The notes under the pieces were generated by a model, which saw nothing but the letters and a program-made list of their open reading frames with translations, had not been told where the DNA came from and did not search any database. From positions 38,208,001 to 38,272,000 of the forward strand of contig CP068257.2 of assembly GCA_009914755.4 (NCBI GenBank): 64,000 nt of DNA, in the 5' to 3' direction. The position numbers were made by a program, and so were the translations under genes. The stretch is from the human T2T-CHM13v2.0 reference genome, Homo sapiens. The number at the start of each line of letters is the position of its first letter. The first letter of the stretch is position 1. Below are positions 25,577 to 64,000 of this stretch, piece after piece.

Positions 25577-25657
25577 TTGGCAGTGTATATGTGTGTGTCT
25601 GTATGTGTGTGCCTGTGTGTGTGTGTATGTGTGGGGCGTGTGTGTGTGTGGGGGCAT

Positions 25658-25688
<31 letters not shown>

Positions 25689-37911: not shown

Positions 37912-38275
37912 AGGTCTTAGTCACCTCAGGATGCCTTAAAAGAATACCACAGTCGGGAGGGTCAGCAACAGAAAATTACATTCTAACAGTTCTGGACGCT
38001 GGAAATCCAAGGTCAAGGTGCCAGGGCTGGCTCCTTCTGAGATCTCTCCCCTTGGCTTTTTCTCCCTGTGTCTCCACAGGGCCGTCCCCCTGTGCATGTC
38101 TGTGTCTCAAGCTCTTCTTCTTATAAGGACACCAGTCATAATAGATTAGGGTCCAACACTTATATACCTCATTGAACCTTAAACCTCATTAGAGGCCCTA
38201 TCTCCACATGCAGCTGTGTTGGGGGGCGGGCCTTCAGCATATGAATTTTGCAGGGACACGATCTGGTCTGTAGCT
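37912..38275 (-). mobile_element. MLT1-type MaLR LTR (minus)
   Basis: '...ttctaacagttctggacgctggaaatccaaggtcaaggtgccagggctggctcc...cttcttataaggacaccagtcataatagattagggtccaacac...ctatctccacatgcagctgtgttggggggcgggccttcagcatatgaattttgcagggacacgatctgg' is the reverse complement of the MLT1 LTR. Confidence 0.7.
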
Positions 38276-41169: not shown

Positions 41170-41566
41170 ATGGCGTCTGTGTTCGTTTCCTGTGGCTACC
41201 AGAATCAAGTACCAAGACTGCGTGGCTTAAGCAACCAAAATGTATCCCCTGGCAGTTCTGGAGGCTGAAAGTGTGAGGTCAAGGGGCAGCACGGTTGGTT
41301 CCTCTGAGACCTCTCTCCTTTGCTTGTAGATGCCATCTTCTCCCTGTATCCTCACAGCGTTGTCCCTCTGCGAGTGCCTGTGCCCTAATCTATTCTTCTT
41401 ATAAGGACACCAGTCCTATTGGATTCGGGCCCACCCTAGTGACCTTGTTTTAACTTAATCACCTCTTTAAAGACCTTTTCTCCAAATAAGGTCACATTTT
41501 GAGATATTGAGGGTTAGGACTTGAATGTATGAATTCTGGAGGAAGGCAATCAGCTCAGACCATAAC
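41170..41566 (-). mobile_element. MLT1-type MaLR LTR (minus)
   Basis: '...gcgtggcttaagcaaccaaaatgtatcccctggcagttctggaggctgaaagtgtgaggtcaagg...cttcttataaggacaccagtcctattggattcgggcccaccctagtgaccttgttttaacttaatcacctctttaaagacc...gggttaggacttgaatgtatgaattctgg'. Confidence 0.7.
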
Positions 41567-43302
41567 CCATTCTCCCCAATAGTCTTCATAGTCCCTTGGT
41601 TGGTCCCAAAGAATTGCTGAGTCTACCCAGCAAAGCCTCAGCCCAGCCCTGCACCTCCAATCCTGCCCCTCTACTTGGAGCCTCAGCACTAACTGCTGTG
41701 CTGCCAACCTCAGGCTGCTGCAGCCCTTGATGTGTCTTTGTGTTGTTAGAAAATGCAGGTCTGCTCCAGAGCCAGCCAGCAGAGCACAGGCTGATTCTCC
41801 ACATGCCCTCTGCACAGCCTGGAGGACCACAGCAGGGACCCCATGGAGGCTCACACTGGGAGACCCCTTCTACACCTCCAGGCTGTGGGGGTCCAGCCCC
41901 CAACAGGGCAGGAGGCCCCTGGGGAGGGTGTGGTTTTTGCCCCTGAGAAATCACAGGTGTCTCCTAGTATAGATAAGCAAGCACCCTTCTTCCAATCTGT
42001 CAATCTGTCCTACATCGCAGATGACACTATGGCTCCAGTTCCTCACCCTGCCCTCCTCCTCCTTCTCTCCCACTACTAACCACCTGGGCAACCCTAAAGG
42101 CATCCCACGTCGGCCTTCCCAAGCGTGGCATTGGGGGCAAGGAGGAGGAGGGGAGTGAGAGAAGGAGGATGCTGTCTTCATTAGTTTGCAAATGATTTGT
42201 GTGGTCAGGATATGTAAATAAATAATTTATATACATATAAAAGAAACGAATATAACACACATATTTTATATAATATATATATAATGTTCATTTCTGTCGC
42301 TCTGTGAAATATAGGTTATTTTATAATAACTCATGTATGAGACTCTGTCTTGCTGGCTGGTGTTCCCACGCTGTGGGCGAGGGTGCTGACCAGCTGGTGC
42401 TCCTGGCCAAGGCCTCTGAGGGCAGCCTGTGCTCGCCGGTGCCCATTTGGGGGCGCATGGCCTTCTGCTTGCTGTCCAAGGTGGACCTGAGGATGTGGTC
42501 GCATCGGTGACCTGGGCATGTAAGGAGGGCAGTCCAGGTCAGAGGGCGTGGGGCTGCTGAGCTGAGGAGAGAGGGTTGATGGGCTGGAGTCTGGTGGCCT
42601 GCTCTGCACAGGGAGACGAGGGGTGCTGGGGACGGGTGGCAAGACGCTTCAATCTTCTCGCCAGACCCGCTCAGTCCTGTACCGGGACTGGCAGAGTAAC
42701 AGATGTGAATGTGCCTTCAGTCTGCACAACGCTTTTTTGGGACAGTTGAGGGCCCACTCTGATGCCTTGAAGACTCTTCAGAGCCTCACGATGTTGGGAC
42801 TGAACAAAGGATGGAACCTCTTCCCGGAAAAGCTGAACAGGACTAAGGCAAGGAGACCTTCAACCAGGCCAGGGCCAATGCCCAGGCTCCTTCCTGGCCC
42901 CACTGTGGTTGTGAGGAGGGCACATCAGCAAGGCTGCTGGAGCCGCTCGCCTCCTTTGTTGAGGTCGTGGGGACCCATTCCCATGTCCCAGTCCATCTAC
43001 TCTTATCCTTCCAGCTCAGGGTACAAGCAGGGCGACAGATATGGGATAGGGGAGACACAGCAGAGATATTAAAGTCCTTGGGCTGAGTTTTGTGTTATAA
43101 AGGGCAAGGGAAACACAGCTCCTGGGAAAACCTGAAAGTGCGTGAGCGGGCACGCAGGTATTTTCAGAGCTCCTCTTCCCTTAGAAAAACAATCCTTCCC
43201 ATTGACATTTGAAAGGTATTTTACATGCATGTAAATCTTGCACTCATTGAAAAACGCACAATGGCATCCCTGTGATGATCTTTGAAACTTTAGCTTTTAC
43301 TT

Positions 43303-43372
43303 TTTTCTTTTTTTTTTTTTTTAAAAGAGACAGGGTCTCGTTCTGCTGCCCAGGCTGGAGTGTATTACTTTT
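43303..43372 (-). mobile_element. Short Alu 3'-end fragment (minus)
   Basis: 'ttttttcttttttttttttttaaaagagacagggtctcgttctgctgcccaggctggagtg'. Confidence 0.6.
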
Positions 43373-43504
43373 TAAAGAAATCGAGCATTTCCTTCCATCC
43401 TGGCGGAATTTGGAGCAGCGACCTAACGTGCCGTTCTCTTTTGCACCACTAGGTGGCCCCTGGTGCTCTCAGATGTCGGCCAGGCTTGCAGACAGGTGAA
43501 TGCA

Positions 43505-43650
43505 TCTCATTGGCTCCAGGGAGGCATGATGCCACCGGGCAGCTCTTTTTAAGAGAAAAGCCAGAACCGGTGGAGCAGCGACCCCTGAGCAGTGTTCTCT
43601 GTGCTGAGCGGCGGGACTGAGCTGTTGAGTTAGAGCCAACATGAGTGAGG
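43505..43650 (+). promoter_or_regulatory. Candidate core promoter plus first coding exon: an inverted CCAAT box (ATTGG), a TATA-like element, then ATG-AGT-GAG immediately followed by a consensus GTGAGT splice donor
   Basis: 'ctcATTGGctcc' lies at 43508-43513 and 'cttTTTAAGAGaaaag' at ~43546-43555. 'gagccaacATGAGTGAG|GTGAGTgatg' has its ATG at 43641-43643 and the donor GT at 43650-43651, and the ATG has an A at -3 (Kozak-compatible). The read-through frame is only 25 codons long (ATG to a TAG at 43716-43718), which supports exon-intron rather than a single-exon ORF. The motif 'ggagcagcgacc...gttctc' is duplicated at 43412 and 43570. Confidence 0.3.
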
Positions 43651-44837
43651 TGAGTGATGCTTCGACCTGGAGAGGGAAACTTAGGAGTGAGAAGGGACCT
43701 CGGCTGAAGGATTAGTCTCAGGAAATGTGAGGGACTTAGCAGTGCTGAGGAACAAATTAATCCTGTAATTATTTGCTTGGAGAACTGACAGGATTAATCT
43801 CTTGGTTTGAATGGTAAGTGCAGAAATTGGTTAAGTTTGCAACTTCTACAATTAGCCTGAGGAGGAGAAAGGTTTGCTTTCTGATTGAATGGTGACTTTG
43901 AAAAGTGCTTTGGGTTTTAGAGCTCAGAAGAGAAAGCCAAATGTTTTATTCTCTTACGAAGATGCGTGTCTTTGCATGATTCCCGCGGTGATACCTTTCA
44001 GAATGTGAGTGGGCAGGTGGTCATCTGGTGAATGCAAGCCATGGAAGGGAAGGGGACAAGGTGGGGAAAGGGCTGGCCGTTGGGTGGCATTTCATGGCTC
44101 AGTTGTACAAACTACCTCTGCAGTTAATCAGAGCACCAGGGAAAGAAATGCAAAAAGTAGTAGGAACTGGGAAACATCCGTGTGTATAGATCTGTGGCTC
44201 TAAGACCGGAGGCGGCCCCGGCAGAAGAAGAGCTACGATTTTGCAAATCCAAAGTCACTTCTCTAAACTTGTTTATACAGAATGTGTTTTACTGGGGCCA
44301 ACTGACAGCACGTTTGTTTTTCTAAAATCATCTTCTCCTTTTTTCTCATCTATGAAGCAGATTAGCGGTGGTACAACACCATTCTCTAATTCAACTCAAT
44401 AACCGAGCCAAATGCATCTTCATTTCCTCTTGGTTGGCACTTAAATAATTACTTTTAAAGATCTTTTATCTTCTCTGTCTCTTTTTGACAGATGGATGAT
44501 TCTTTTCTTGGAAGTCTAGGATAAAATTAACAACTTCAGAAATAAAATGCCTCCTCCCTGCTTTTATCTCTCTGATGGGTGATTTTTGATGTAAACATGA
44601 CAAGAAGAAGAGCAAAGCACTATAAAACTTAGAAATGGGGTTTAGGACAAAGCCAGGGGTTTGAGGCAGGGAGAGACCAACTGTGGGGTGGAAGATGGGA
44701 ATTCTCCCACCACCACAATCAATGGTACCTGTAACAGCAGCTAACACTTGCCTAATGGTCTGTGTGCCGACAGTGTCAGGCTGTCTCTGCATCTGTCACC
44801 TTCTTTGAACCTCTCAACAACTCCGTGCAGTGGGCAC

Positions 44838-44985
44838 CATTATTATTCCCAATTGACAGATGAGGACACTGAGGCACAGAGATGGGAACTAAGTGGTTTG
44901 AGGTCACCAGCTAAAGAACAGTAGAGCCAAGACTTGGGCTGCAATGCTGGGTGGTTGACTGCCGGGTGAATCTTGATGTCTAAAT
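44838..44985 (-). mobile_element. MIR SINE fragment (minus)
   Basis: 'cattattattcccaattgacagatgaggacactgaggcacagagatgggaactaagtggtttgaggtcaccagctaaagaacagtagagccaagacttgggctgcaatgctggg' is the reverse complement of the MIR core. Confidence 0.6.
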
Positions 44986-46849
44986 GTGTATGGAATTTGC
45001 TGAACAGAGGGGATGGCAGAGGTTGGAGGAGGAGAGGGGAGGTGAAGAGAAAGAAAGAAAGGAGCTGGGGCTCTGAAATAGAGATGGAATGATGAGGATG
45101 AGACCTCCATTTCCCACATGCTAGGAGGAGGGGCTTTCTGCTGGACTCTACAGATATTTCAGAAGCTTCTGTGTCCACATCAGCTCACCTTGCTTGCAAC
45201 AAGAAGGGATGGCTGCGTGGAGTGGTTTTTCTTTATATACAACTTATCCAATAAGAGTTTCCTATAGAAGAAGGACTTAGAAAGCAGCACAGCACTGAGG
45301 GGTGGCCTCTCGGGTCAAGTCAGCTACCCTGGGATTCTGGCTCAGTCATGCCGTCACTTGCTGAGGCTTCTGGCCAGCAAGGTGCTCATGAGCTCTCCAG
45401 GATGCTCAGCTCTGCTGGGCTCACTCAACTGTGCGGGTCTCCAGGGAGAAAGCGCGTGTTCCAGAGCTCACCTGTGATTAGGGTCACAGCCTGGTTCCTG
45501 CTGAACGGGTAATCAGGGCAGCTCTGTAGTCACCGCCCCGCCATGGCGCTTATCAGACACATTTGCAGGTTCTTGCAGGAGCTCTTGCCTTAGTTCCTTT
45601 AATGTGGATAAAAGCACACAAGGGGCACATCCCACTTTTCTGCCTCCCCTTGCTGCTCACAAAACCCCTCCCAGCTCTCTGCTCCTCATCCTCCCTCCTG
45701 CCCTCTTCTCCCCCTCACATCACATGAGGCCTCCTCCCTCTGACCATCAGCATGGCCACTGCTCCTGGCTGATCTCCAAGTTCCTGGGCATGTGCTCCTT
45801 GGAGAGCAGGAATTTGTCCTTTGACTAAACCTCAAATCTGCTTAAAATCTTTAGTAAAGTGCAACAGAAGCTCCTTTCTGGGTAGAGAACTCGATTCCCC
45901 CTTCATGGCACCCCTCAAGGGGTTTCTTTGGTTGGATGAATTAAATGTGGCTCCTAGTTTTAATAACTCTCAGGCAGAAATGGCTTTCAGATCATCATTT
46001 ACTTGCATGTGTGACTAATTACCAAAGAAAGCCAGAGCAATGGATTTTGCCAGACTTTCCTTGACCTTAGGATTGATTGGGGTCTGGTGGGCCAATAGTG
46101 CCTGCTGCAGTGCCAGGGCTGAGTGCCTGCTGCAGAGGCTCCGGAGCTCATTAGCTGCTTACCCAGGCCAGTGGGCAAGCCTGCTGGCTGGAGAGGACCC
46201 CAAAGTGTCATATACTCCCCGGGGCCTGCTCTGCACTTCCAGGCCTCCCCGCCTTTAAGGGAAAGGTGGAGTGGCAAAGGGAGCCTCGAACTGGCTTTAA
46301 ACTGGGCAGCTTTACAACAAGACGTCTTCTTTATTTCCTGTAACAACACTTTTTAGGGGAAATGACATGTGATAGAAAAGAACAGCTCAGGAAAGTAAAG
46401 TACAACGAGGAAAGTAAAGTCCAAATTTAGGGTAATGTGAGAGAGAGGAGGTGGTTTGTGGGGGTGTCTGATTTACATTTTGGTATTAAAATATGTCAGA
46501 TGTGCCTGGAGCAATCTATGAGATGAATTGGAAGAGAATGTAGCAGGGATCAGAATGCAGGCTTAAGTCTATCAGCTGGATCAGAAATCTTAACCATCAC
46601 AGCCTCAGTTTACAAGGTGCATTCTTTCTCCCTCATCGTACTCACCCAGGCACAAGAAAAATGACTACCTTTGTTCAGCCACTTCATAGAGCTTTTGAAA
46701 AAAGAGTTCCTGGAATAATGACAGTCAGTCCCACGTTCTCCTTTAGGTGTCTATTTTTAAGTTGCTTTTCAAAAGAACTCATTTAGGAGAGCTAGGGGCA
46801 AGGTTGGAAGGCATAAGGACAAACATCTGAGCGTGAATTTAAAAACGTG

Positions 46850-47100
46850 ACGCCCTTGCCCTGTTTAGGGTGCGGGTTGGAGACGTTCCAGGTCACGTAA
46901 TCAAATGACAGCTATTAATTGGACTTGAGACCCCTTTGGGAAAAGCCTCTTCGTAACCCCGAGTTTCACGGTCATGGGCTGGGCTTTTTTCTTGCTTTGG
47001 CGTGGATGGGAAAGTGCAACTCAGTACAAGGGCTGTGGCTCTTTCTTTCGTCTAGACATTGGCCGCAGGGCAAGGCGATGCCCATCAAAGGCATGGTTTG
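46850..47100. promoter_or_regulatory. CpG-retaining block dense in transcription-factor motifs, a candidate distal regulatory element
   Basis: 'aaacgtgacgcccttgccc...gcgggttggagacgttccAGGTCAcgtaatcaaaTGACAGctatTAATTGg...ccccgagtttcacggtc...ggcgtgg...ttcgtctagacattggccgcagggcaaggcgatgccc'. There are 11 CpGs in ~250 bp of otherwise AT-rich DNA. It holds an AGGTCA nuclear-receptor half-site, a MEIS-type TGACAG, a homeodomain TAATTG and a TGAT (PBX-like) core. Confidence 0.25.
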
Positions 47101-48107
47101 AAAAACATCAAGGACATTTAAGGGTAAATCTTTAGATACACATGTCTGTTCTTAGCACCCAAACAGAATCCATGTCGAACTTAATGTATACGTTAAAACG
47201 TACAATAATCTCTAAAGGAAGAAGAAAGCTGTAAATGGCATTTTTCTTGACAGAGATTGCAAACGGGAGGCTACATGCAGTTAACTCGTGAGGTGAGGAC
47301 ATAGAAAAAACATGAATTAAAAAAATGTTTTGCCACTGATTTTAAAATATCATACATACAACAGTGGTTTGGGGCTTACATAGTTGACTCTCACGATTGC
47401 CCAGTGGAGGGACTAAGGTTAAAACGAAACAGATCCTAAGAAGAGAAAGATTATGGCTTTGAGCTTCTTACAACGTAAGGGTAAACTCAAACAGATGCTA
47501 ATGGGTGGCTGATTAGATTTGTAAGGAGCTGTATATTTTAGACCAGTTGTTAAGCACAGATTCTGAGGGTGACTGCATAAAATGTGGGTTTTGCAAATGG
47601 TCTGCAAAACCCAGCAACAAAGGTCAAATGACAATTCAACTTCTTATGTAATTATAACCCCATTTGAGGGTGTACCTGCAGCAAGGACTCTGACAGATCA
47701 AGCAAGATCAGTTTTAGTTTCGTTGGACAACACCATGAAAGATACTCTTTCCTCTAATTGGGGATATTAAGTCCACATAGTCACCAGTTACAATCTGGGT
47801 TTGAAGTTCAACTTTTCCTAATAGAAAGGGGTCAAAATTAAGCAGGAATATGTGTTTCCCAGGGCCGATGATTGTTAAGAGTTGCCATAAAACTTGTTTC
47901 CCCAGTCATGCATTCTATGAAGAAATGCTGTGGGGTTAAAAAGTCTCAGGTTTTCTCTTTTGAATTTTAAGAATGACACAATGCAAGATGTATATTTTTT
48001 TTTCAAAAAGAAAATAAATGACTCATTATTGATTTTATTAAAGGTTTAGTGAAGTAGTACGATCAAGATGAAAAGAAAACATGTTTTTGTAATGGAAAGT
48101 TTCTTAA

Positions 48108-48436
<329 letters not shown>

Positions 48437-51400
48437 TGCGTTATTTTTTAAAATTCTAATTTCTACTCTCAGTGTTTCATTAGAGATGTGATCGGGGGAA
48501 GGCATTCACAATTTGTCTATGGTCCTTCTGTTCTTAGACCACTGGACACATTGAACTATTTGGACGCACAGAGAATATCAGGACCTAAGCCTGGGGCTTT
48601 TCATTAATTTAAAATGACTTTCTAGAAAGGTCTTCATACTGGGAGAAAAGAAGAATTTTAGGGGATGCATGCATACAGGTTTATGTTATATTTAATGATA
48701 TTTTTATGAAACACAACATTAAATATCCTGCTGTTAAAGTATTATAGGCTGCATAGTATTGATTAGAAGCATCCCAGACTGTGAACTTCCCAAAAGGGAC
48801 AATTTTATGTCATTCACAAGTCTGACTGCTGGTTGGGCACTTGGTAAATGTCCAGTTACTGAATGAATAAATAAGTTTTGGGATGTGGATTTATCAGTTG
48901 CTGTAATCAATAGGCCAGGCACCCTCTTCTCTAAATGTTGAGGCTTGTGGTTGGGATACATTTGGGAAAGATGTATTCCATCTTTTGTTCTTTACTCCTG
49001 GTTTGAAACCTGTGTTTGCCATGTAAATCCTTTTATGTGGGAAATGGGTGCATTGTTATATACGCAACATAAGTGCTCTCATGACAGTAAAAGAAAATGA
49101 GAAAAAATAAGAAGGATCTCAACAGAAGGACCTCTTGACATTTGGGAAAATGTCAGGGAAAATATGGGAACGGAGCAAGGGACGTAGAATTCTAATATCC
49201 TATGTTTCCCTGTTGTCTCCATTGAGACTAGCTCACTTCAGATAAGCTCAATGAAACTCAAGCAAAAGAGACTGTAGCCAGAGAGGCAGAGCCTGTGAAT
49301 ACCTTGGAAAGTGGTTTGCTGTATTGAAACAGAAAACCAATTTGACTGTGATTAGAAGAGAATAAGAGAGAGTCTAAGCAGATCTGTAGTAATATAGCCC
49401 CAGTGCCCAATCTCCATCAGCCCAGTTGTAAACTCTGGCATATTGTTGAAGGTAAACATCTAGCACGCGGAAAGCAAGTTCCATATTATTGCAAGGAAAT
49501 AATTTAATTATCATCTAAAATTAATTCTTAATAGCATACTCATAATATTAATTAAAATAAATAATTGATATTTGAATATTTAAATATTTTAGTAAATTTA
49601 TATTTGAAATAGGAATATATGAAAATTTATATGCAAAAAGGGATGGATTCAAATTTCTTTTCTTGGGGAGTTCGAAACTGAATTGCACGTCCATATCCCC
49701 ATGTGATTAATCTGATAGGAGCTCTGCTTTCCTATCATCCCCAGGGATGAACTATTTACCATTCTTCTTCCCATTTTTCAAATGAGGTGCAATGTGAACA
49801 ATGAATACAGAAACGTTTTCCAGTCACCTGGCACAAGGGCCTTTGGGGTATAGATATGGGAATGTTCGATAATGGATTGTTTTGTGCCACAAACAAAGCA
49901 AGCTTGCCACAGTCATCAATGGCTCAAACCTATAAATGCCACATTCATGTTGGGGCCATTCTACATGAACAATTTAGCATAAGCCACACATTCCAGGCAT
50001 GGGTCTGCTTGTATATTGTTTATGCCTCACAAAGAGCTCTGAATTTATGCTTCAGAATCTCACTGAATTTACTGCTCATTCCATTTCTGGAAGGGAAACA
50101 CTTGGCCCATATTTATGACATTGCCAGTAGAAAAATCAATCACCCACTAAATGCCATTATTTTATATTTTACTCTTAACCTGCCATTTTATAAATGAAAG
50201 GAAGACAAATTAGACTCATAAAGCAGGAAGGTAATCATCCACAAATTGAACATTTAAGGGCAAGGAAGCAAAAGCTGTGAACTGTTCCAACCATTCAAAT
50301 AAGGCAATTTTCCTCACAAAGGAGCTAGAATAGAGAGCAGGGGAGTCCCTCTCTTCAAGGTTTCTGCCCTCCATTTTAGGACAGTCTTGGACTTGGATGA
50401 GACTAAAACGTCTCCAGCCATACACGAGTCAGACCTCTTCCTCGTAGTTCAAAAGACAACTTTTGAATGTTAAATATTATTTACGACGGTTTGATAGCAA
50501 AATGGGATCCAGATTGGCTTGAGATCACGCTATTCCTGGTATAACAATCCAAGTCTGTGGTATAGTGGCATGACAAAAGACACAGTCATCTGTTCCCGTA
50601 GCACCACATCTGTGCTTTGGTCAATAATCGAATGAAGTAATGGTTATTTTAATTTTATATGACCTCTGAGAAAAGGACTCCAGAAGTTAACAAGACCCAT
50701 TAACATGTGTCTTAATCAAATAAGAGTAAAAATATAACAAGGAAACACAGAAACACAAGAGGGAGAAATAATATAATTTCTTCCTTTTTTTTCAAGATCT
50801 TTTTTTTTTTTTTCTAAAAAACAATACAAGCATCTGTTCATCAGGTGGTTAAGTTCTAGTATTTTAAAAAAAAAGCTAGTTAAAAGGTTACACCTGCTTT
50901 AAAATTTATGATTCTTATGTACAGTAGCTCCCCCTTATCTTCAGATGCCCGGTGAATGGCTGAAAGTGTGGGTGGTACCGAATCCTACGCATGCTATGCT
51001 TTTTCCATCCGATAATACCTGAAAGTGCTGCTAAGTGGCTACGGGCAGGTAGTGTAGACAGTGTGGATACGCTGGGCAGATGAATGATTCATGTTCTTAG
51101 ACAGCAAGCGGTTTCATAACGCTACTCAGTAGAGTGTGCAATTTGCAACTTATGAATTGTTTATTTCTGGGATTTTCCATTGAATATTTTTGGACTGTGG
51201 TTAGCAGCAGGTAACTCAAACCTCAGAAAGTGAAACCAAGGAAGGTTAAGGGGGAACTACTGTGTGCAATTTCTTTATTAAATAATAGCCACTGTTTCGT
51301 TAGGAGTTGTTAGAGAAATATCACTTTTTTTTTTCTTGTACCCAGCAAAATGACTAATTGTATTTAGGGTTTTCTTTTTCAAATTGTAAATTTTCTCACA

Positions 51401-52294
51401 GTTTTTTTTTTTGTTATGCAGAGAAATCTCTGATGCAATGAATGGGTCAAATTTTGAGCTGAGTGTGGCTGTGTGACAGCATCCTGGGTGCTGGTCTCCT
51501 CATCTCTGAGGGGTGACAGCATACACACAGACACTGGTGCTGCCACAAGTCTGCCCATGTCCAAGACGGGCGATGGTGTGGAGCCTTCCTTTACAGATCA
51601 TAACTCTGCATCTTCCAGAGAGTTTTAGGTGGAAATAGCAACAAGCAAAACTTCAAACCATTATGCCATAGTGAGATCTTCTCCTTAAAACAATAAGGGT
51701 GACTTGACGTGATTTTATCCTCTTGCCTTCTATGACTTTCCACAATTGTGGTTGCTCTAACAACAACTGTCTGTTTTAGCATATCAATGTTTTGGGAACT
51801 ATCTTTTCAATCTTCCTGCAGATCCATAACAGAACTATGGAATAGTGTCCACAATGACTAAGGATATCAATACTCCCAAGTTTTTGATAGTGTACCTTAA
51901 TAGGGAAAAAATTTGACCATGTATACACAACAAATTTTTATTTATTTTACAATTATGTATACATGCGAATATGCCAATATAGTAAGAGTTAATCATTAAA
52001 GGAAGGGTAAGGAAATCTGTAATTCCAATAGACTTTTTGGTAACTGTACTTCTTTTTGAGTCTAATTTGATGGCTGAGGTTTTTAAGCTTGTATTGGTGC
52101 CCATGAAGACATCCTAAGAAAAGAAGGTTTAGTTAGTGCTTCTATCGTTTCCTTGGTGTTTGTGCTGATGGTGTTAGTATTATTTTCAGTCTATGATTTA
52201 ATGCAGAATTTTTCAATTAAATCTGAATATATATTTAATTGAAATATATATTAAATATATAGTAAATAATATATATATGATTTACTATTTTAAC

Positions 52295-52580
52295 CACTTT
52301 TAAGTGTACAGTTCAGCGGTATTAATTACATTTACACTGTCGTGAAACGGGTCCACAGAACTTGTTCATCTTTCAAAGCCAAGACTCTGCACCCATTCAA
52401 CAACCACTCTCCATTACCCCGCCCCTATCCTCTGGCAAACCCATTCTATTTCTTACCTCTATCAGTTTGACTACTTTTGGTACCTCCTGTGCATGGAATC
52501 ATACAGTATTTGTCTTTTTGTGACTGGCTTATTTTACTTAGCATAATGTCTTCAAGGTTCATCTATGTTGTGGCCTGTGA
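52295..52580 (-). mobile_element. Old L1 3'-end fragment (minus)
   Basis: 'taaccacttttaagtgtacagttcagcggtattaattacatttacactgtcgtg...cattctatttcttacctctatcagtttgactacttttggtacctcctgtgcatggaatcatacagtatttgtctttttgtgactggcttattttacttagcataatgtcttcaaggttcatc' parallels the L1 antisense 3' region seen at 10160-10460. Confidence 0.7.
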
Positions 52581-53548
52581 CTATATAGGACATTTTAAAA
52601 GCCACTTACCTACTGTGGGAAGATTAGTTTAGTTAAAGGTAGATTGTATAATCTGTAAATCCTCTTAATGGAACATAAGGAACTGCAAGGTATCACATGA
52701 TGATATTCTGAGAGCAAGTCAACAGGCAGTGTGTCTGGGACAATCTCCCATTGTGGGACTCCTACTCTTTCCTACCCACCAAGTGATGATGTCATTATCA
52801 ATCCAGATATTAGCTATGAATGAAACCTAATTTTTAAATTGATCTTAGATCCTACACAAATATAAATAGAAATTCTAAAGTCTTCTTTACCATGAGTGTT
52901 TGTGGCAGTGAAGCACCTTACAACCCCAGAGGTGCCGTTGACACTGTGGTCTGTGCCAACAGCACTGCCTGGAGTTGTGCTGTGAACAACCTATGCCACT
53001 GAACATGGTGGCTCTGCCCTTCCTTGAGTTGATGTCAGCCTGCTTAAGGACGGTTGACCTTGAGAAAGGCTGTCGTTTTTATAGTTCCACTTAGAATTCA
53101 GGGAATCAGAGAAGGGCATCGTTGTCATTTCATTCAAAGCGGTCATTTTAAAATAGGGGACTGAGTGTCCAACGATGAATCTTGTGCAGAATCACAGAGC
53201 TTCTTCAGAGAAAACCTAAGTTTCCTTTCCACATTTTCCATGCTATTACATTTCTCATTTTCTGGATACAACCCAATTTCTTTTAAACCTGTCCAAATTC
53301 CACTTAGGGTTTGCACAAGTAATTTATTAAATTAAAATTGTCCTGAATATTTTTATTAGCCTTGAGTAAAAAAAGAACAGCCACAGAAATCTTGACAAAG
53401 CCATTGTTTTGTTCATCAGGTCTTCCACTCTATTTCTAGGGATTCCAGCTTCCACCCTGACACCCCCAGCCTCCCATCCCGTCACACACAGAGAAGCTGA
53501 GAAATGTTAATAATGCTTCCCTGTGGAATGTTTCATTAAGACCCTTGT

Positions 53549-54131
<583 letters not shown>

Positions 54132-55109
54132 CTAGATTGTGACGAGAGAGAGAGAGAGATTATGTCTTCTTCTATACCGTTTCATCTTCCCAGCACTATA
54201 TCATTGAACTCCCATTGATGGAGAATCAATAAGACGTGGTCCTTACCCCTTAAAGAACTTGTAGGGGGAGACAGAATCACATAAAATTAACTCTACTCTG
54301 GTGTCCACGCAGAGCTACAGGCCTATTCTCTGTATAAAGCAAGTGCCAGGATGCATGGGTTAATTTGCCATTGCTCAGAGCTGGGAAGGAGAGGAAAGAA
54401 GATGCTAATGGGTAACCTTCCCAAAGCAGCCGGGGCTTACAGAAGTAGGGGCTCAGCACACATTGATTGAAGAATAGCACTACGATAGCACTCTGCGAAT
54501 CTTAAAAGTCATACAATTTAGAGCCATGTGAGAATTTAGCAATCTTCAAGCTCATTGTATAGATACATGTCCATTATGATACTGTAGTTAATTCTGAACT
54601 CCTGCCTGGTGATAAAAATTGCTTTAAACATGTTGGACATTTTCTCATCCACATCAATGAATATTTGGGCTCTAGGGACTTGTTGCATCTTTCTTTAAAA
54701 GTGAAAAGTCTTCTGTATATTGGAAAGAGATTACATGAGGACAGTCAATTACATTTTTGAAAGTGCACACATTGGTTGGTTGTAAAATTTACATGATCCA
54801 ATTGTGAGAACTGTGTACATGGATTTAGGTATGTCTGTTATTTCCCTTTGTGAGAGTATCTATCCGTGCTTGCTCATGGTAGAGTATCATTGCACTTTGT
54901 ATCTCAGAGCTTCTAGTGGCTTCTTAACCATTATATTATTGTCTTTTCTTTGAAGTTTGCTCAGGGGATGGGCTCAACCCTGTATTTATAACTCTGCTCT
55001 CACATATGCTTAAGTCTTGTCAAAATATCTAGATAATACAGTGCCACACCTCAAATATTTCTGGAAATGTTCTATACCTCAGAAATGTGGGATATTTTAC
55101 CTCTTCTTG

Positions 55110-55432
<323 letters not shown>

Positions 55433-56239
55433 CAAGAAAGTTTCTTAAAATAGATGTAGCAATTTGTCAAGCACCTCCACCAAATACCTCCTTCAAGTTC
55501 ATAGTTATTTTTCATCCAGGTTCCTTCTTTGCCGTCTTTAAAAATGATTCATTTCATTTCTCAGGCACTATTCTATGAATTTCCATGTCATCACTTTTTT
55601 GCTGAGTTCTTGCTAGGAGCCAGAATTGGCTGAAATTCCTATGAGAGTTCCCCCACAGTTGCATTTTGGATGAGGATTTCAAATTTCACATGACAAAATA
55701 TAAATGCCGCTAAATGTAACTCCAGAGGTACAAGCAGTGGCGTCGGAGGCCCCTTCTCTGGCTCCTTAATGCCCCCATTAGTATTACAACAAGGAAAAGA
55801 GACATGGGCTGAAGAGTCAGGCAGATACTGGCAGAAGTGAGTCCAGTTAAAAACACATCATGGTTCTGTAACCCGCCCTGCTGGCCCCCTCTGCCTTCAA
55901 CCTCTTTTGAGGTAACGTAGCTCAGAGTTCAGACATCCATAAAAGCCTGTGACAGGGAGTAGGGCAGGACCAGTGACATAATTTGTGGCCCCAATGAAAA
56001 ATCAATACGATGCCCCTTGTTAAACATTGATTAGAATTTGAAGATGGGGACAGCAACATATCAGACCAAGCCAGGGCCCTTCTGAGAGTGGTCCCCCTTG
56101 GACCGCATGGGTCACTCTCTCATGAGGCCAGTCCTGGGTCAAAATGAGAAGCATCCCAATTGCTTTTTAATGAACAAATTAAAAACAAAAGAGGCAGAGC
56201 TGAAGAAACATAATTCCATTATCTTTGCAATGTCTGGAG

Positions 56240-56350
56240 ATATCTATATCTATCTATATCTATATCTATATCTGTATCTATATCTATATCTATATCTATA
56301 TCTATATCTATATCTATATCTATATCTATATCTATATCTATCTATATCTA
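56240..56350. repeat. (TATATC)n / (TATC)n microsatellite, ~18 units
   Basis: 'gatatctatatctatctatatctatatctatatctgtatctatatctatatc...tatatctatctatatctattcc'. It generates the poly-(LY) ORF at 56098-56487. Confidence 0.9.
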
Positions 56351-56574
56351 TTCCCTGTCCAAGTGGAAGCTCTCAAAATGGCCCAAGCCTGACCATGGAG
56401 GTCAGTGGGTGGAGGGTCTTTCCCACAAATCCAAGGGAGCTTTCAAGTTGGTTTGGAGGAAGCCTCCCTAGCAGCATGCTTGAATAAGAAACTATTGTGT
56501 TCAAGCATCAGCTTGGCTGGTGCTGAGGACTCTTTTGATGATGAAGTAATAAAATGGATTCAAAATCACTTGGC

Positions 56575-56662
56575 ATATGCATGTGCATGTACATCTGTGT
56601 GTGCGTGTGTGTGAGTGTGTGTGTGTGCGTGCGTGTGAGTGTGTGTGTATACGTGTATATGT
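56575..56662. repeat. Imperfect (TG)n microsatellite
   Basis: 'gcatgtgcatgtacatctgtgtgtgcgtgtgtgtgagtgtgtgtgtgtgcgtgcgtgtgagtgtgtgtgtatacgtgtatatg'. Confidence 0.85.
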
Positions 56663-59600
56663 TTAAAGGCCATATAAATGCTAAACTCTGTGTGCAAATG
56701 TCCTCGAATTCTGATTCCAACTGTCTTTATCGAGTGCTGGTTGTTTATCCAGGTGAAAGCATCCGCTGGCCAGTTTTGTCCCACGTCTTTTTCTATCAAG
56801 TCTTTGGTCCTCACTTCTTCTTCCTGAGTATGTCCGGAGGGAACAGAATGCAGATGTACTAGGCTTTTCAATTAAAGAAACATTTTTGTATGCTGGGCTT
56901 TGGAAATAAAGAGGTCTACCTTAGTAATTCCGGGATCAATATGTGCAGATAGGAAGTAATTTGGTGGTGTGACCTTTGGCCATTTGTAAGTGCCTTGTCC
57001 CTGGAAAACAATGTTTAAATTGGAATTGGGTTTGTTTTCCAGCCAATTAAATCCTTCTGGATTTCAGAGGAATTTGAAACAAAATATGGAACAAATATCT
57101 ATTATGAAGGAGGCACAGCTGTTAGATGAGTTGGTTGTTGGTATTGGTGGTCGTGTGTGCATTTTATTTTTTTTTGTGGGAGAGTAGAATTTTCACTTCT
57201 GCGGGGAGCATCTGATCAAATGGCCCATATAACTTTTACCTGTCTGCTAATCTGAGTCTCAATCCACTTCTTGGGCTGTGACAGCTGATTTAGGACAAAA
57301 CATTCCTTTTCTTCCAAAAGTATACAATCTTGGGCTTCTACTGTTTTCTGAAGCTATTTTTGTTCTAGTTGAATGTTGGGGGGAGAAACCTGGCTATTTG
57401 TTTATTATTATACCAAAAAAGAAAGTCTCCAGCTTCTGAAGCTTGGGGCACTCACTGTTAGAGAAACATGTTTGGCAGCACACAGGGCCAAATAAACTAC
57501 ACACCTGCATTTCATTACAACAGGTCATTGCGGGAACAGTGGCATTAGCCTCCATAGGAAAAGGGTTTGCATGGGGGTCTAGGAAGCCAGTTAAACACAT
57601 GAAAAACACATTGAGACACCTGGACAGAGTGATTTATGAAGCAAGAACTGTTTTCATGGTGCCAGGGTCCTGTCCTCGCAGATGCATGAAACGTACATCT
57701 GCAGTTCTGACATCACAGCGGACACGGGACTCTGAGTGATGCATTACTGAGTTCCCTGACAATGTGAAATGCATTTGTCCCGTTTTTTCCTAAAATGGCC
57801 CACCTATTTTCAAATGCAGAGTCCTGTGCGATGTCATACATTTCCACAATGTTGCTTTAAAATAAGAGAGGGCAGGAAACGTGATTCCGACTCTGCACCC
57901 AGATGGACTGAGGCATAATATGTCTGCATCGTTGATGGCAGAAAGTGGGCGTCCAAGTCAGGTTTTCCGTCTTCCAAGCCAATCTTTCCCCTTCTAGACC
58001 GGAAAGATTAAATGGCAAGTAGAACACCAAGTCAATCTGCCCAGACTCAAATTCCATTCCCTGACCCCCTCACATAGCTGTAACATGCTTGGGCATAATC
58101 CTAAGCCTCTCTGTGTCTCAAGTTTTCTCTCCATCCAGTCGGGATAAAGGCAGTAGCCACCTTGTAGTAGGCTTGTTTCCATGAGAGTGTTTAGCTGCTC
58201 TTACTATGACTGAAAAAACATAGCTGCTTGCATTTGCAGACAGAGCCTTGTGACTTGGTGCAAAGAAAGGAAAACATCTTTGCCGAACTTGGAGGTCTCA
58301 TCTATTCACTCAGCTCTAAATATGGGCTTCTCTTGAATAACCGCAGGTTTGGCCTGTGTGCTTTCTTTCTCACGCCTTTTTGTTCACTTGATGAGGATGC
58401 CGAGTGCAGCGGTACATTACGCTTGGCTCAACCGTGGCAGAGCCAATGTGGCCATGGTGAGAGATCATTCAGGATGGATGACTGCTTAGGGACTGGCAGG
58501 GCAAGAGTCTCCCAGCTGTTGCGGCATTTCATCCTGTGGTCTTTGGTCATTCTTTGGCTTTTATCTGAGTACACCCGGCATGGCATTTTACCAGCTGTAC
58601 TGGGGAGGACTGGGGGAATGGAAAGCTGGCATTACTGCTGAAAGCAAAGAAAAGATGTGTCTTTCTCTGTGGCCGGTTTCTGTAATCCGGGAAGACCCCA
58701 TGTGGGTTTTCTGATCTCATGTCAGCTTCCCTAGTTGAAGTATAAAATTGCTAGAAGAACCACATCATCCTCGGAGGGACAGGCAGGCATCCTTAGTGTT
58801 CTTGAAATGATTACATCGTCAGTTTCATTTAGTTCTAGAAGACTGGCCCTGCCTGTTGGTTTTTCCCCTAATCGTCTGTGTAAGAAAGACTTACCCTTAA
58901 ATGGGTGAGTTACAGGCAGGGCTCAGTTTCTGTCATTACACTGATCTTTCATTGACAGTTTTCCACCCTCTGTTACTCTTGGCATCGGGCTGGTCAGCCA
59001 TAACTTCTAGGGATGGGGAGAGAAATCGAATCTCTTCTATTCTTCTCTGTACTGCTTCAATCTGGCAACTTCTACGTAGACTGTGAGAATATAACCTTGT
59101 AATAAACATTTGGGTCTCTTTGCCTTTGTCCGAGAGCCCACTGTTATTTTTTTTCTAATCACAGCAGCTGCTCTAGCTAGCATCTGGCTCATATACCAGC
59201 AGCCTTTATTCTGAGACTAATCTAAGGATTCAACACCAATTCAGGAAGGCAATCAAAGAAGTGGGTTGGATGGACAAGTATTTCTTTGTGTACAGTTCAG
59301 ATGCAGAAGGTGGTAGACACCTACATTGATGCATTGTCCTAGCATCCTACAGATCCATGGGGTTGCCAAGGGTGGCTTGGTGGGGTTGGGGGGTGCAGGT
59401 GAATTTGGCTGTAGCTGGCATAAATGGAGGTGCTTGCATGTTGATTCCTGGGCCCTTTGACCCAACCTCTGGTTTGGGGAGAGGCTGCTGATTAGAGCAG
59501 ATGCACACACCTTGTAACAGGGCCACTGAGTTCTCCCAGTCTTCCATCCACATTTCTTCTTTGTCATCAGCGTTCCCTCCTCCTGTATTTTCCCTTTCTA

Positions 59601-60099
59601 GAAAAAAATATGAGCTGTGATTTGTACAAAACACACAAAATGCATCCGTTGGAATCAGAGATCCAGGAAACTTCAGCTGAAATTAACAACTTCGTAACAC
59701 AGGTAGAGCCTACGTCCTTCATGAGAAAAATGACACAAATCTCAGTATTCTTTGTTTGGAGTCTCTTGACATCCATGTGAGGTACATATTTTCTGTATTC
59801 TATTTTATTTTAATTCACCATGAAAAAGAAACTGGTCAAATAAAGAAGCCAAGGCTTTGAGGAGCAGAATCATTTATTTGTGGTGATTCAGCCATATTTA
59901 CTCCCAGTGTTTCAACTGTGAGCTCAATGCACTGTTTTCATTACTTTTACTATATTGCAAGTTGAATACAATGAAAAAAAAAGGAGAAACATCTCTTCTT
60001 AAGCCTGTTTTACCATTATTTTGCTCTCTGATTTTTCTTAGAAACCAAATCCATGCAATGTGAGTGTTTTTATCTCATTTAGTTCTCACACATTAATGA

Positions 60100-60235
60100 G
60101 GTGGGTATATTGTTATTCTCATTTAATAAAAACAGACACTGAGGCTCAGAGAAGTTAAGTGACCTGAACTGGGCCACACAGCTGCTGGGGACCAGGGCTG
60201 GGATTACCTGGGTAGTTGGATTCCAGCACACTTAT
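60100..60235 (-). mobile_element. MIR SINE fragment (minus)
   Basis: 'tattgttattctcatttaataaaaacagacactgaggctcagagaagttaagtgacctgaactgggccacacagctgctggggaccagggctgggattac'. Confidence 0.5.
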
Positions 60236-60277
60236 TTTTGAGGTTAAGTTTATTAAGGTGTAATTTACATGTGGTAA

Positions 60278-60652
<375 letters not shown>

Positions 60653-60659
60653 TAGACTA

Positions 60660-60985
<326 letters not shown>

Positions 60986-61987
60986 TTCTATCACCTGAAA
61001 AGTTTATTTGTGTGCTTATAGTCAGTCCTTTCTTTCTACCCTTGGCCCTAGAGCCCACATTCTTCACCAGCACACCTTAAATAAAAATAAGCCCAATTAC
61101 GATGCAAGGTATTTACACCGTTTTGAGTATAGCATGATCATATCAGCTTTTAAGTCAATTAAATCTCATAGTGCGACAGTTTATAAATGTTACTTTATAA
61201 TGAATAGCTGAAGTATAGAAAAGTAACAAAATGACACCAGAGTGACCTATGTTCCTGGTCCTTGTAAATTATGCCAGGATCTCTGACTGCAGGGAGGGCA
61301 TTCAATGAATGGGAACGCTTTTGATTCTGAACAGCAGCCTTAGCCAGAGCCGTTAAATGGGTTTCTGTCCTGCTCCTTCTCAAACTGACACTGAGCAAGC
61401 GCCACCTGCTCCTGCTCCAGGGGGCTATTCAACCATGTAGTCCCAGGGGAGCCAGGGCTGTGGGAGGTGTTGGTTGCTAAGAAGCAACGAGCCTGAGGCC
61501 TAGCCGCGAGCCTGAGGCCCAGCGGAGCTCCCGGTTGCCCTCCCTCTGCTCTGACCACAGCTTGTCCCTCTGCCAGGCGCTGCCCTCACAAGGCAGCCGA
61601 GAAGGACATCAGGCTGGCGGCTGGGGAAACCTCTGGCTCGGGGCTGGAGAAACAGTTCTGGGCATGTGGTTGAGGGAGGACACATCTCTTCTTTCTAGCC
61701 CAGGGAGTGTCCTACCTCCATGTGGTTTGGGGTTCAGGAGAGAATTCAGCCCATGCCCGTGGAGTCACATCCCCCTGCAGAGGGCACACACCCAAGCTGC
61801 GCTGAAGGAGATGCCCTCCCCTGTGCCCTGGGCATCCCCCAAAGCCAGGCACCCTCTCCCTCCCCTGGGACAGGACGCCAGGACAGGCCCCAGAGCCTGG
61901 GAGCCAGACTTTGCCCGGCTTTCTTTCCTGAGCGTGCTTCTATCAGCTCCTGTGGATGAGTCTGTTCTTTCCTATGTTGCTGTCTGA

Positions 61988-62765
<778 letters not shown>

Positions 62766-64000
62766 AACAAGTGACAGGTATGAAATATGTAAGATTTGAA
62801 AAGTCAGAGGGAGCTCCAAATGAACTCAACAGTGTGGGCTGGACATTTCACTGTGAAATCTGTGAAATTAGAAGAGTCCACACAGAAGTCATTAAATAGC
62901 AACTGTTCCTTAAGTTGTAATGTATATCTTTATGAAATTATATATATGGCATGTGGTTGGTTTTATAAAAGAGAGACTATATATATGTCCACCTATAAGA
63001 AGATGAAAAGAAAATATTCTGAAGTATTAACATGGATTAACTCTGATTAGTTGAATTGTAGGTGGCTTTTTGCATTTTTCCTTGCTCATTTATGTTCCAA
63101 AAATTTCACAACGGCCATATCCTACTTTTGCAAATAGAAAACAGTGTTCTTCAGCATGAAAATTGGCACAAAGAAGAATTTTTTTAAAGTAGAAAATGCG
63201 AATTTTAAAAATATAGCTGTGAAAAAAAGTATAAAATTAATTCCAATAAAATAAATCGTGGATACCTGAAAATGATGGTACGTTTATAAATGGTTTGCCT
63301 AAACTGCAGTGATGCTAATTAATTCTCTTACCATAAAGGTCAGGATAAAAAAATGACAGGAATAGAACGTAGTATTTGAGGCAGAATTTCAGCCTTTGGG
63401 TCTTCCAGAGGTGAGAATGAAAGAAGAGAGGAGGAATTAGAAAGGTTAATGCCTTTGTCATTGAAAATCCCATCACTTTTTTTTAACCAACTTTTTTTTT
63501 TGTTTTTTGGTTTTTTTTTTTTTAAAAAACCTTCTAGCTGAAGTTTTCTTTTGACATGAATTTCTACACCTTTAGGGATTAAATTAATGCTCAATTTTTG
63601 GAATGTTATTAGGAGAATTATAGATGACAAAAATATCACTGGCGAGAAATTAAATCTTTTCTGTCTCTGTCACAAAATGTAGGCATAAAAGTCTCTTCTG
63701 CTCATCAGACAAATTCAGCAACTTTGATTTTGAAGTTGCCTTTGATGATAGGTCTTCAATGTTCCTGAGAATCCATTTGCTTAATGATCGAGGTGGCCTC
63801 AAGCAGTCTTCAGCTACGTGCTTACCTGCCCGGCTGTTGATGCCATTTCACTGTGCAATCCCTGTGCTTTGCTTCTCTGTTCATTCAAAGATGGATCATC
63901 TAAGAGCCTGATTAGCCTTCGTCAAAATAACATTACATATAATACCATAGTAACAGGCCTTTTTGTTTCTTTATAAACAGGGTGATTCAGAGAAAGCAGA

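What the first reader, a model, noticed from the sequence alone, without database searches (positions are those of the whole stretch)
42330..43700. CpG-island-like block ending in CCAAT/TATA-like motifs and an ATG-AGT-GAG|GTGAGT arrangement: a candidate promoter and first coding exon (plus strand)
CpG density rises sharply over ~1.4 kb relative to the AT-rich, CpG-depleted surroundings. At the 3' edge an inverted CCAAT box (cATTGGc, 43508-43513) sits ~35 bp upstream of a TATA-like 'TTTTTAAGAG'. About 85 bp further on, 'gagccaacATGAGTGAG' is followed directly by a consensus 5' splice site 'GTGAGT'. Reading through, the frame is only 25 codons (it stops at a TAG at 43716). So if this is real, the ATG exon encodes only Met-Ser-Glu before an intron, a common layout for human first coding exons. 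A duplicated 'ggagcagcgacc..gttctc' motif (43412 and 43570) brackets the core promoter. A bidirectional promoter, with a minus-strand gene starting in the GC-rich 42340-42640 part, is also possible.
Basis: partly seen in the sequence, partly recalled or inferred. Interest (0 to 1): 0.6.

Follow-up and report, generated by a model that had tools for sequence, protein, structure and literature searches.

The report
PCP4 gene promoter and first exon

Summary
The finding is the 5' end of PCP4 (Purkinje cell protein 4 / PEP-19; human chr21q22). A published human PCP4 RT-PCR primer, AGAGCCAACATGAGTGAG|CGA, matches window 43632-43649 and then jumps to exon 2, exactly at the proposed GTGAGT donor. In twelve annotated vertebrate PCP4 loci the coding sequence starts at the orthologous ATG (window 43641). 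ATG-AGT-GAG|GTRAGT is kept from coelacanth to primates. Exon 2 begins CGACAAGG after a strong acceptor 26.5-36.6 kb downstream, beyond the window's end. The inverted CCAAT box (43509-43513), a TGATGCCAC element and the TATA-like CTCTTTTTAAGAG (43543-55) lie in a block 90-95% identical in distant mammals and 79% in tortoise. The intervening 5'UTR is only 38-62% identical.

"CpG-island-like" overstates things. The 1.37-kb block is the most CpG-dense stretch of the window, but its observed/expected ratio is 0.39 and no sub-window passes island criteria. Its upstream GC-rich half (42340-43000) aligns only in primates and one other mammal. I found no evidence for a divergent minus-strand gene. The transcription start (~43575-43585) is inferred, not shown.

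Verdict: interpretation supported, already known, low interest.

The parts
42340..43000 (.). Upstream GC-rich, moderately CpG-enriched block (GC 54-65%, CpG o/e 0.24-0.39). It is lineage-restricted and is not part of the ancient promoter. Function unknown.
   Evidence: Composition. It aligns to the Old-World-monkey-like loci (about 92%) and to L006 (about 66-71%), but has no counterpart in L001. Cattle flanks align only from 43019 onward. Its ORFs have no Pfam hits. No second copy was found in about 0.9 Mb of fetched loci.
43296..43362 (-). Poly-T run plus a truncated Alu 3' tail, lying between the upstream block and the core promoter.
   Evidence: blastn to a recalled Alu consensus: 43316-43362, minus strand, Alu positions 246-288, 81% identity. 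Sequence read.
43411..43423 (+). First copy of the exact 13-mer TGGAGCAGCGACC. It is poorly conserved (CpG>TpG in monkeys, deleted in L001).
43488..43560 (+). Conserved core promoter of PCP4. It contains E-box-like CAGGTG (43493-43498), an inverted CCAAT box ATTGG (43509-43513; minus strand AGCCAATGA), TGATGCCAC (43527-43535), and the palindromic TATA-like CTCTTTTTAAGAG (43543-43555).
   Evidence: Identity to the window over 43488-43560: monkey 99%, L006 89%, L001 95%, cattle 90%, tortoise 79%, opossum 63%, Xenopus 56%. The neighbouring 5'UTR gives 38-73% in the non-primates.
43571..43583 (+). Second copy of the 13-mer TGGAGCAGCGACC. It overlaps the inferred transcription start zone, about 25-35 bp downstream of the TATA-like element.
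   Evidence: The TSS position is inferred from TATA-like spacing only and is not shown.
43578..43640 (+). 5' untranslated part of PCP4 exon 1. Its 5' end is inferred. The Kozak context is gccAACATGA, with A at -3.
   Evidence: A published human PCP4 primer covers 43632-43649. An in-frame TGA at 43626-43628 excludes an upstream extension of the ORF.
43641..43649 (+). First coding exon segment of PCP4: ATG AGT GAG = Met-Ser-Glu, ending in phase 0.
   Evidence: Primer junction GAG|CGA. The position is orthologous to the annotated CDS start in 12 loci. PCP4_HUMAN begins MSERQGAG.
43650..43655 (+). 5' splice site GTGAGT of PCP4 intron 1.
   Evidence: GT.AGT is invariant from Xenopus and coelacanth to primates. 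The genome continues GTG where the mRNA primer continues CGA.
43650..64000 (+). First 20.35 kb of PCP4 intron 1. Exon 2 lies beyond the window.
   Evidence: Intron 1 is 26.5-36.6 kb in eight mammalian loci, and exon 2 starts CGACAAGG after a tttag acceptor. No exon 2/3 match in the window.

Best explanation
Window 43440-43655 is the core promoter and exon 1 of PCP4 (Purkinje cell protein 4 / PEP-19, 'calmodulin regulator protein PCP4'; human chr21q22.2), in a hominoid, most likely human, genome.

Proposed mechanism:
1. A non-CpG-island, TATA-like promoter is assembled on an inverted CCAAT box (the typical NF-Y site), a TGATGCCAC element and the TATA-like CTCTTTTTAAGAG.
2. Transcription starts roughly 25-35 bp downstream, at about 43575-43585.
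3. The roughly 70-nt exon 1 carries about 60 nt of 5'UTR and the codons Met-Ser-Glu.
4. Exon 1 is spliced from GAG|GTGAGT, across an intron of roughly 30 kb, to exon 2 (CGA CAA GG... = Arg-Gln-Gly...). Exon 2 lies outside the window.

Shown here: the gene identity, start codon, exon-intron junction and sequence conservation of the promoter motifs.

Inferred: the factor assignments (NF-Y, TBP) and the exact TSS.

The upstream GC-rich half of the 1.4-kb block is younger, lineage-restricted sequence. It raises the CpG count but is not needed to explain the promoter.
For: 1. Primer evidence.
- Literature search for CCAACATGAGTGAG found a human PCP4 qRT-PCR forward primer, AGAGCCAACATGAGTGAGCGA (PMC5912152).
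- Its first 18 nt occur once in the window, at 43632-43649 (0 expected by chance).
- Its last 3 nt, CGA, differ from the genomic GTG, so the mRNA is spliced at 43649|43650.
- The reverse primer encodes DIDMDAP of PCP4 and is absent from the window.

2. Protein identity. MSERQGAG...GSQS is exactly PCP4_HUMAN NP_006189.2.

3. Orthologous loci. Genomic loci encoding that protein align to window 42000-44200 at 91-92% (four loci), 75% and 70%. Their annotated CDS start coincides with 43641.

4. Downstream exons. Exon 2 starts CGACAAGG after a polypyrimidine tract and AG, 26.5-36.6 kb downstream. Exon 3 follows about 30 kb later.

5. Deep conservation of exon 1. ATGAGTGAG|GTRAGT is conserved in opossum, cattle, tortoise and coelacanth. 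Xenopus has ATGAGTGCG|GTGAGT.

6. Promoter conservation. The core promoter is 90-95% identical in Laurasiatheria-level relatives and 79% in tortoise. The 5'UTR is 38-62% identical. ATTGG is kept in 7 of the 8 aligned species (opossum has GTTGG), and the TATA-like element is 72-100% identical to the window in every aligned species.

7. RNA-level support elsewhere.
- A rodent Pcp4 primer, GTGAG|AGACAAAGTGCCGGAG, spans the same junction.
- Spliced RNA-seq contigs L019 and L020 show GAG|AGA.

8. Chromosomal location. An independent paper places PCP4 intron 2 at chr21:39.905 Mb, hg38.
Against: - No human or ape genomic record was retrieved; those look-ups timed out. Species identity therefore rests on the exact human primer match and on about 8% divergence from monkey-like loci.
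- The TSS is not demonstrated. No CAGE or 5'-RACE data were available, and no published primer lies in the predicted 5'UTR upstream of 43632.
- The TATA-like element lacks a canonical TATA core, so TBP binding is an assumption.
- NF-Y binding was not tested.
Confidence: 0.97

Rival explanations
1. The whole 1.4-kb block is a CpG-island-type, bidirectional promoter. It would also launch a minus-strand gene or lncRNA from the GC-rich 42340-42640 part.
For: The block is the most CpG-dense 1.37-kb stretch of the window. The 42340-42640 segment is 65% GC. A non-coding divergent transcript cannot be excluded with these tools.
Against: - CpG o/e is 0.34-0.39, and no sub-window passes island criteria.
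- The promoter has a conserved TATA-like element, which is atypical for bidirectional CpG-island promoters.
- The 42340-43000 block has no counterpart in one distant mammal, L001.
- Its ORFs have no Pfam hits.
- No second protein-coding gene is called within 10 kb upstream in six annotated assemblies.
- Orthologous promoters are CpG-poor, with o/e 0.0-0.59.
Confidence: 0.04
2. The upstream GC-rich block (42340-43000) is a separate, evolutionarily young regulatory element or a degraded mobile-element insertion. It sits next to the PCP4 promoter and is unrelated to the ancient core promoter.
For: It aligns only in primates and L006. In L001 the interval is replaced by about 2.5 kb of unalignable sequence. 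It is bounded by AT-rich simple sequence (42200-42330) and by an Alu tail plus poly-T (43296-43362).
Against: No second copy was found in the window or in about 0.9 Mb of fetched loci, so it is not an abundant repeat. No repeat library was available to classify it, and nothing indicates enhancer activity.
Confidence: 0.3
3. The CCAAT / TATA-like / ATG / GTGAGT arrangement is a chance constellation in non-functional DNA.
For: Each motif is short and individually common. The read-through ORF is only 24 codons. No downstream exon exists in the window.
Against: - The human PCP4 mRNA primer junction falls exactly here.
- The position is orthologous to annotated PCP4 start codons in 12 loci.
- The motifs are conserved over roughly 350 million years while the flanking 5'UTR is not.
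Confidence: 0.005

Closest known systems
Human PCP4 (PEP-19; calmodulin regulator protein PCP4, NP_006189.2), exon 1 and proximal promoter, chr21q22.2
   Same: - The start codon context AGAGCCAACATGAGTGAG is identical to the published human PCP4 primer.
- The first three codons are MSE.
- The splice junction is the same, and the three-coding-exon layout with roughly 30-kb introns is seen in orthologous loci.
   Different: Nothing detected. The only gap is that the window was not aligned to a human reference record, because no such record was retrievable here.
TATA-plus-CCAAT, non-CpG-island tissue-specific promoters (the classical NF-Y/TBP architecture)
   Same: - The inverted CCAAT box has flanks fitting the NF-Y consensus (AGCCAATGA) and lies about 65-75 bp upstream of the inferred TSS.
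- An A/T-rich element lies about 30 bp upstream of the inferred TSS.
- CpG content is low, and conservation is sharp and focal.
   Different: The A/T element is TTTTTAAGAG (TTTAAAG in opossum and Xenopus), not TATAWAWR. It is embedded in a perfect 5+3+5 palindrome, CTCTT-TTT-AAGAG. Factor binding was not tested.
CpG-island promoters (Gardiner-Garden and Frommer definition)
   Same: Local rise in GC (54%) and CpG density. It is the most CpG-dense stretch of the window.
   Different: Observed/expected CpG is 0.39, below the 0.6 threshold. No 200-bp sub-window qualifies. The enrichment comes largely from a non-conserved upstream block.
Genes whose first coding exon holds only the ATG or a few codons (for example calmodulin genes and other small EF-hand or IQ-protein genes; from general knowledge)
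   Same: A mini coding segment of 9 nt, followed by a consensus donor and a very long first intron.
   Different: This is a layout analogy only. No homology is claimed.

Membership tests
PCP4 gene, exon 1 | The mRNA sequence across the exon 1/exon 2 junction matches the genome up to the donor and then diverges. | tested here: met
   The primer AGAGCCAACATGAGTGAG|CGA matches 18/18 nt at 43632-43649, after which the genome reads GTG. Exon 2 of the orthologs starts CGA.
PCP4 gene, exon 1 | Orthologous position to the annotated PCP4 CDS start in other genomes. | tested here: met
   Window 43641 aligns to the first base of the annotated CDS in L001-L006. ATGAGTGAG|GT is also at the CDS start in L007-L012.
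PCP4 gene, exon 1 | The encoded residues agree with the PCP4 protein N-terminus. | tested here: met
   The window encodes MSE, and PCP4_HUMAN is MSERQGAG....
PCP4 gene, exon 1 | 100% identity to the human reference genome at chr21 PCP4. | not testable with these tools
   No human or ape genomic DNA could be fetched; look-ups timed out. Identity to monkey-like loci is 91-92%.
CpG island (Gardiner-Garden and Frommer) | At least 200 bp with GC of at least 50% and CpG observed/expected of at least 0.6. | tested here: not met
   GC is 54%, but o/e is 0.39 overall and 0.24-0.49 in sub-blocks. The only passing 200-bp spots in the window are 17041-17320 and 46841-47090.
TATA-box core promoter | A TATAWAWR-like element about 25-35 bp upstream of an experimentally mapped TSS. 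| tested here: inconclusive
   TTTTTAAGAG (43546-43555) is A/T-rich and conserved (72-100% identical to the window in every aligned species), but it is not a canonical TATA box. The TSS is not mapped.
NF-Y-dependent CCAAT-box promoter | A CCAAT pentamer with NF-Y-type flanks at about -60 to -100, and NF-Y occupancy. | tested here: inconclusive
   Sequence and position criteria are met. AGCCAATGA is on the minus strand at 43506-43514, and ATTGG is conserved in 7 of the 8 aligned species. Occupancy is not testable.
Bidirectional promoter | A second, divergent TSS or gene within about 1 kb on the opposite strand. | tested here: not met
   No protein-coding gene is called within 10 kb upstream in six assemblies. 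The upstream ORFs have no family hits. The upstream block is not conserved in L001. Non-coding transcripts are not testable.

The most novel reading that the evidence does not exclude
The most novel reading not excluded concerns the compact promoter module CAGGTG - ATTGG - TGATGCCAC - palindromic CTCTTTTTAAGAG. Its order and spacing are conserved from Xenopus and tortoise to primates. It could be an uncharacterised cis-regulatory code that, together with the colinear intron-1 conserved elements, specifies PCP4's restricted neuronal and endocrine expression. Alternatively, the young upstream GC-rich block could drive an unannotated primate-lineage divergent non-coding transcript.
Probability: 0.12. 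Interest if true: 0.3.

Novelty: already known. Interest (0 to 1): 0.08.

Why it matters
As a discovery it matters little. PCP4 is a well-annotated gene, and its exon 1 and promoter position are in every reference annotation.

The check is still useful in three ways.
- It corrects the 'CpG island' label. PCP4 has a CpG-poor, TATA-like, tissue-specific-type promoter.
- It documents that the roughly 70-bp core module and the 3-codon exon are ancient: tetrapod-wide for the module, sarcopterygian-wide for the exon. That could guide promoter-dissection experiments for a Down-syndrome-region gene.

Tried and rejected
- Recalled 'MSE...' proteins (SUMO3, S100B, PCP4) were run by tblastn against the window. 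No exon hits were found. For PCP4 this was later explained by exon 2 lying off-window.
- Rfam scan of the whole window: nothing.
- ORF listing: only L1- and Alu-derived or random ORFs up to 181 aa. This ruled out IFIT-like genes, which have a long second exon.
- Codon-usage log-likelihood ranking of 1020 inter-stop segments simply tracked GC content.
- A phase-0 acceptor scan downstream of 43650 gave 11 candidates, none protein-like.
- A literature search for primers inside the predicted 5'UTR found nothing.
- A search for a remembered PEP-19 gene-structure paper found only a neurogranin citation, so that memory is not used.
- Two attempts to fetch ape PCP4 loci timed out.
- Alternative PCP4 first exons from database isoforms (P0118, P0106, P0059) map next to exon 2 or into intron 2, outside the window.
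- Logan RNA contigs L019 and L020 turned out to be from a GC-rich sauropsid-like species. They confirm the splice junction but not the human TSS.
Full report
**What is in the sequence**

- cATTGGc is at 43508-43514.
- TTTTTAAGAG is at 43546-43555.
- ATG AGT GAG is at 43641-43649, followed directly by GTGAGT at 43650-43655.
- An exact 13-mer, TGGAGCAGCGACC, occurs at 43411 and 43571.
- Reading through the donor gives 24 codons and then TAG at 43713-43715.

The window is primate DNA. It holds thirteen Alu copies or fragments and L1 ORF2 fragments.

**CpG content**

- The block has 38 CpGs in 1371 bp, with GC 54% and observed/expected 0.39.
- The two 2-kb flanks have o/e 0.24-0.25, and the whole window has 0.22.
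- Only 0.24% of equal-sized windows hold as many CpGs.

So the rise is real. It still fails the classical island definition, because no 200-bp sub-window in the finding reaches o/e 0.6. The only qualifying spots in the window are 17041-17320 and 46841-47090.

The block is also heterogeneous. It consists of a GC-rich part (42340-43000), an AT-richer part with a poly-T run and a truncated Alu tail (43296-43362), and a 260-bp segment at 43440-43700.

**Identifying the gene**

Several approaches found no downstream exon in the window: ORF listing, Rfam, codon-usage scoring and a phase-0 acceptor scan.

A full-text search for the string CCAACATGAGTGAG found a human PCP4 qRT-PCR forward primer, 5'-AGAGCCAACATGAGTGAGCGA-3' (PMC5912152).
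- Its first 18 nt occur exactly once in the window, at 43632-43649, with zero matches expected by chance.
- Its last three bases, CGA, are not what follows in the genome (GTG).
- The reverse primer encodes D-I-D-M-D-A-P and is absent from the window.

The protein [62 protein letters not shown], which I recalled, is exactly PCP4_HUMAN (NP_006189.2, 'calmodulin regulator protein PCP4'). A separate paper places PCP4 intron 2 at chr21:39.905 Mb in hg38.

**Orthologous loci**

Loci encoding exactly this protein were fetched from annotated assemblies. Window 42000-44200 aligns at 91-92% to four of them, which is Old-World-monkey-like divergence. It aligns at 75% and 70% to two more distant mammals. 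In each locus the first base of the annotated CDS aligns to window 43641.

Exon 2 ([17 protein letters not shown]) starts CGACAAGG right after a long polypyrimidine tract and a 'tttag' acceptor, 26.5-36.6 kb downstream of exon 1. Exon 3 follows about 30 kb later. The window has only 20.35 kb after the donor, which is why exon 2 could not be found in it.

Further loci were fetched for opossum, cattle, a Gopherus tortoise, Xenopus laevis and coelacanth.
- ATGAGTGAG|GTRAGT stands at the CDS start in all of them, except that Xenopus has ATGAGTGCG.
- The three-codon first coding exon is therefore ancestral to sarcopterygians.
- A rodent Pcp4 primer (GTGAG|AGACAAAGTGCCGGAG) and two spliced RNA-seq contigs (L019 and L020) show the same junction at the RNA level in other species.

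**Promoter**

Multi-species alignments (A1, A2) reveal a sharply conserved block at 43488-43560. It contains CAGGTG (43493-98), the inverted CCAAT box (ATTGG at 43509-13; minus strand AGCCAATGA, which fits the NF-Y consensus), TGATGCCAC (43527-35) and CTCTTTTTAAGAG (43543-55), a perfect 5-3-5 palindrome around the TATA-like core.

Identity to the window:

| Species / locus | Core block 43488-43560 | 5'UTR 43578-43640 |
|---|---|---|
| Monkey-like (L003) | 99% | 98% |
| L006 | 89% | 73% |
| L001 | 95% | 51% |
| Cattle | 90% | 62% |
| Tortoise | 79% | 38% |
| Opossum | 63% | 46% |
| Xenopus | 56% | 41% |

- The ATG-to-donor segment (43641-43655) is 93-100% identical in all seven.
- ATTGG is kept in every species except opossum, which has GTTGG.
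- Opossum and Xenopus carry TTTAAAG in place of TTTTTAAG.
- The distance from the TATA-like element to the ATG is about 86-95 nt throughout.

Whole-window comparison shows that 43440-43694 is the strongest element shared with opossum and tortoise.

**Mechanism (shown versus inferred)**

Shown: the gene identity, start codon, donor, phase-0 junction to exon 2, and purifying selection on the CCAAT, TGATGCCAC and TATA-like module.

Inferred from established promoter biology:
- NF-Y binds the CCAAT box.
- TBP/TFIID binds the TATA-like element.
- Initiation occurs at about 43575-43585, which overlaps the second 13-mer copy.
- Exon 1 is about 70 nt long, with about 60 nt of 5'UTR and a good Kozak context (A at -3).
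- The CpG-poor, TATA-like architecture fits PCP4's tissue-restricted expression.

The orthologous core promoters are also CpG-poor, with o/e 0.0-0.59.

**The upstream half and the bidirectional idea**

The GC-rich 42340-43000 block aligns in primates and in L006. It has no counterpart in L001, where about 2.5 kb of unalignable sequence occupies the interval. Cattle align only from 43019 onward.

Its ORFs hit no Pfam family. No other protein-coding gene is called within 10 kb upstream of PCP4 in six assemblies. No second copy was seen in about 0.9 Mb of fetched sequence. It is probably young, lineage-restricted sequence of unknown origin. A divergent non-coding transcript cannot be excluded, but nothing supports one.

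The 13-mer duplicate is real but weak evidence of anything.
- P is about 0.02 under a Markov model, and 12% of real tiles in the window have some 12-mer repeat.
- The first copy is mutated in monkeys and deleted in L001.

**Verdict**

'CpG-island-like' should be toned down to 'locally CpG-enriched, non-island'. The feature is already known and of low interest.

The remaining uncertainty is the exact TSS and a formal alignment to the human reference. Neither could be obtained with these tools, because the ape and human look-ups timed out.

Noticed in passing
window 44242-44542, 56832-57104, 63557-63819; also 46363-46535: Non-coding stretches of PCP4 intron 1 align to the tortoise PCP4 locus at 62-67%, colinear at L010 2768, 14001 and 27779. 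One further stretch (46363-46535) aligns to opossum at 72%. These are candidate ancient intronic enhancers.
   Followed up: partly
window 46841-47090 and 17041-17320: These are the only two spots in the window that pass formal CpG-island criteria on 200-bp windows (GC 50-55%, o/e 0.62-0.76). One is in PCP4 intron 1, about 3.2 kb downstream of exon 1. The other is about 26 kb upstream. Their nature is unknown.
   Followed up: no
window 41178-41557 and 38000-38260: An interspersed repeat with many 63-74% matches scattered through the introns of distant mammalian PCP4 loci. It is probably an old SINE or MIR-type element and was not classified.
   Followed up: no
window 43543-43555: The conserved TATA-like element is a perfect palindrome, CTCTT-TTT-AAGAG. 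It is identical to the window in the four monkey-like loci and L006, and differs at one base (CCCTTTTTAAGAG) in L001, the two cattle/bovid loci and tortoise.
   Followed up: partly
window 27942-28153; 25590-25682; 56240-56351: A minisatellite with a 20/61-bp unit (GTGCAGTCATGGAAAGCATG-like, about 9.6 copies), a (TG)47 microsatellite and an (ATATCT)19 microsatellite.
   Followed up: no
window 3568-4926 (minus strand): L1 ORF2-like reverse-transcriptase ORF fragments of 125 and 181 aa, the longest ORFs in the window.
   Followed up: no
L002-L005, about 10 nt downstream of exon 2 (e.g. L003 40439-40492) and within intron 2 (e.g. L003 56726-56776 and 59183-59221): The alternative PCP4 N-terminal exons seen in database isoforms map to these sites, outside the window. 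The isoforms are Callithrix X2 (MKSPTSFSFAICSPGYAA), human 'isoform CRA_d' (FLGRNFNSFHVLREKKAF) and a Macaca UniRef entry (LSTKEGTNLANGK).
   Followed up: partly
L019 1-540 (Logan SRR13659269 contig): This spliced PCP4 mRNA contig comes from a GC-rich, sauropsid-like species. It carries the ATTGG and CTTCTTAAAGG promoter module upstream of the ATG in the same contig. That suggests either upstream initiation or an assembly that mixes genomic and cDNA reads.
   Followed up: no
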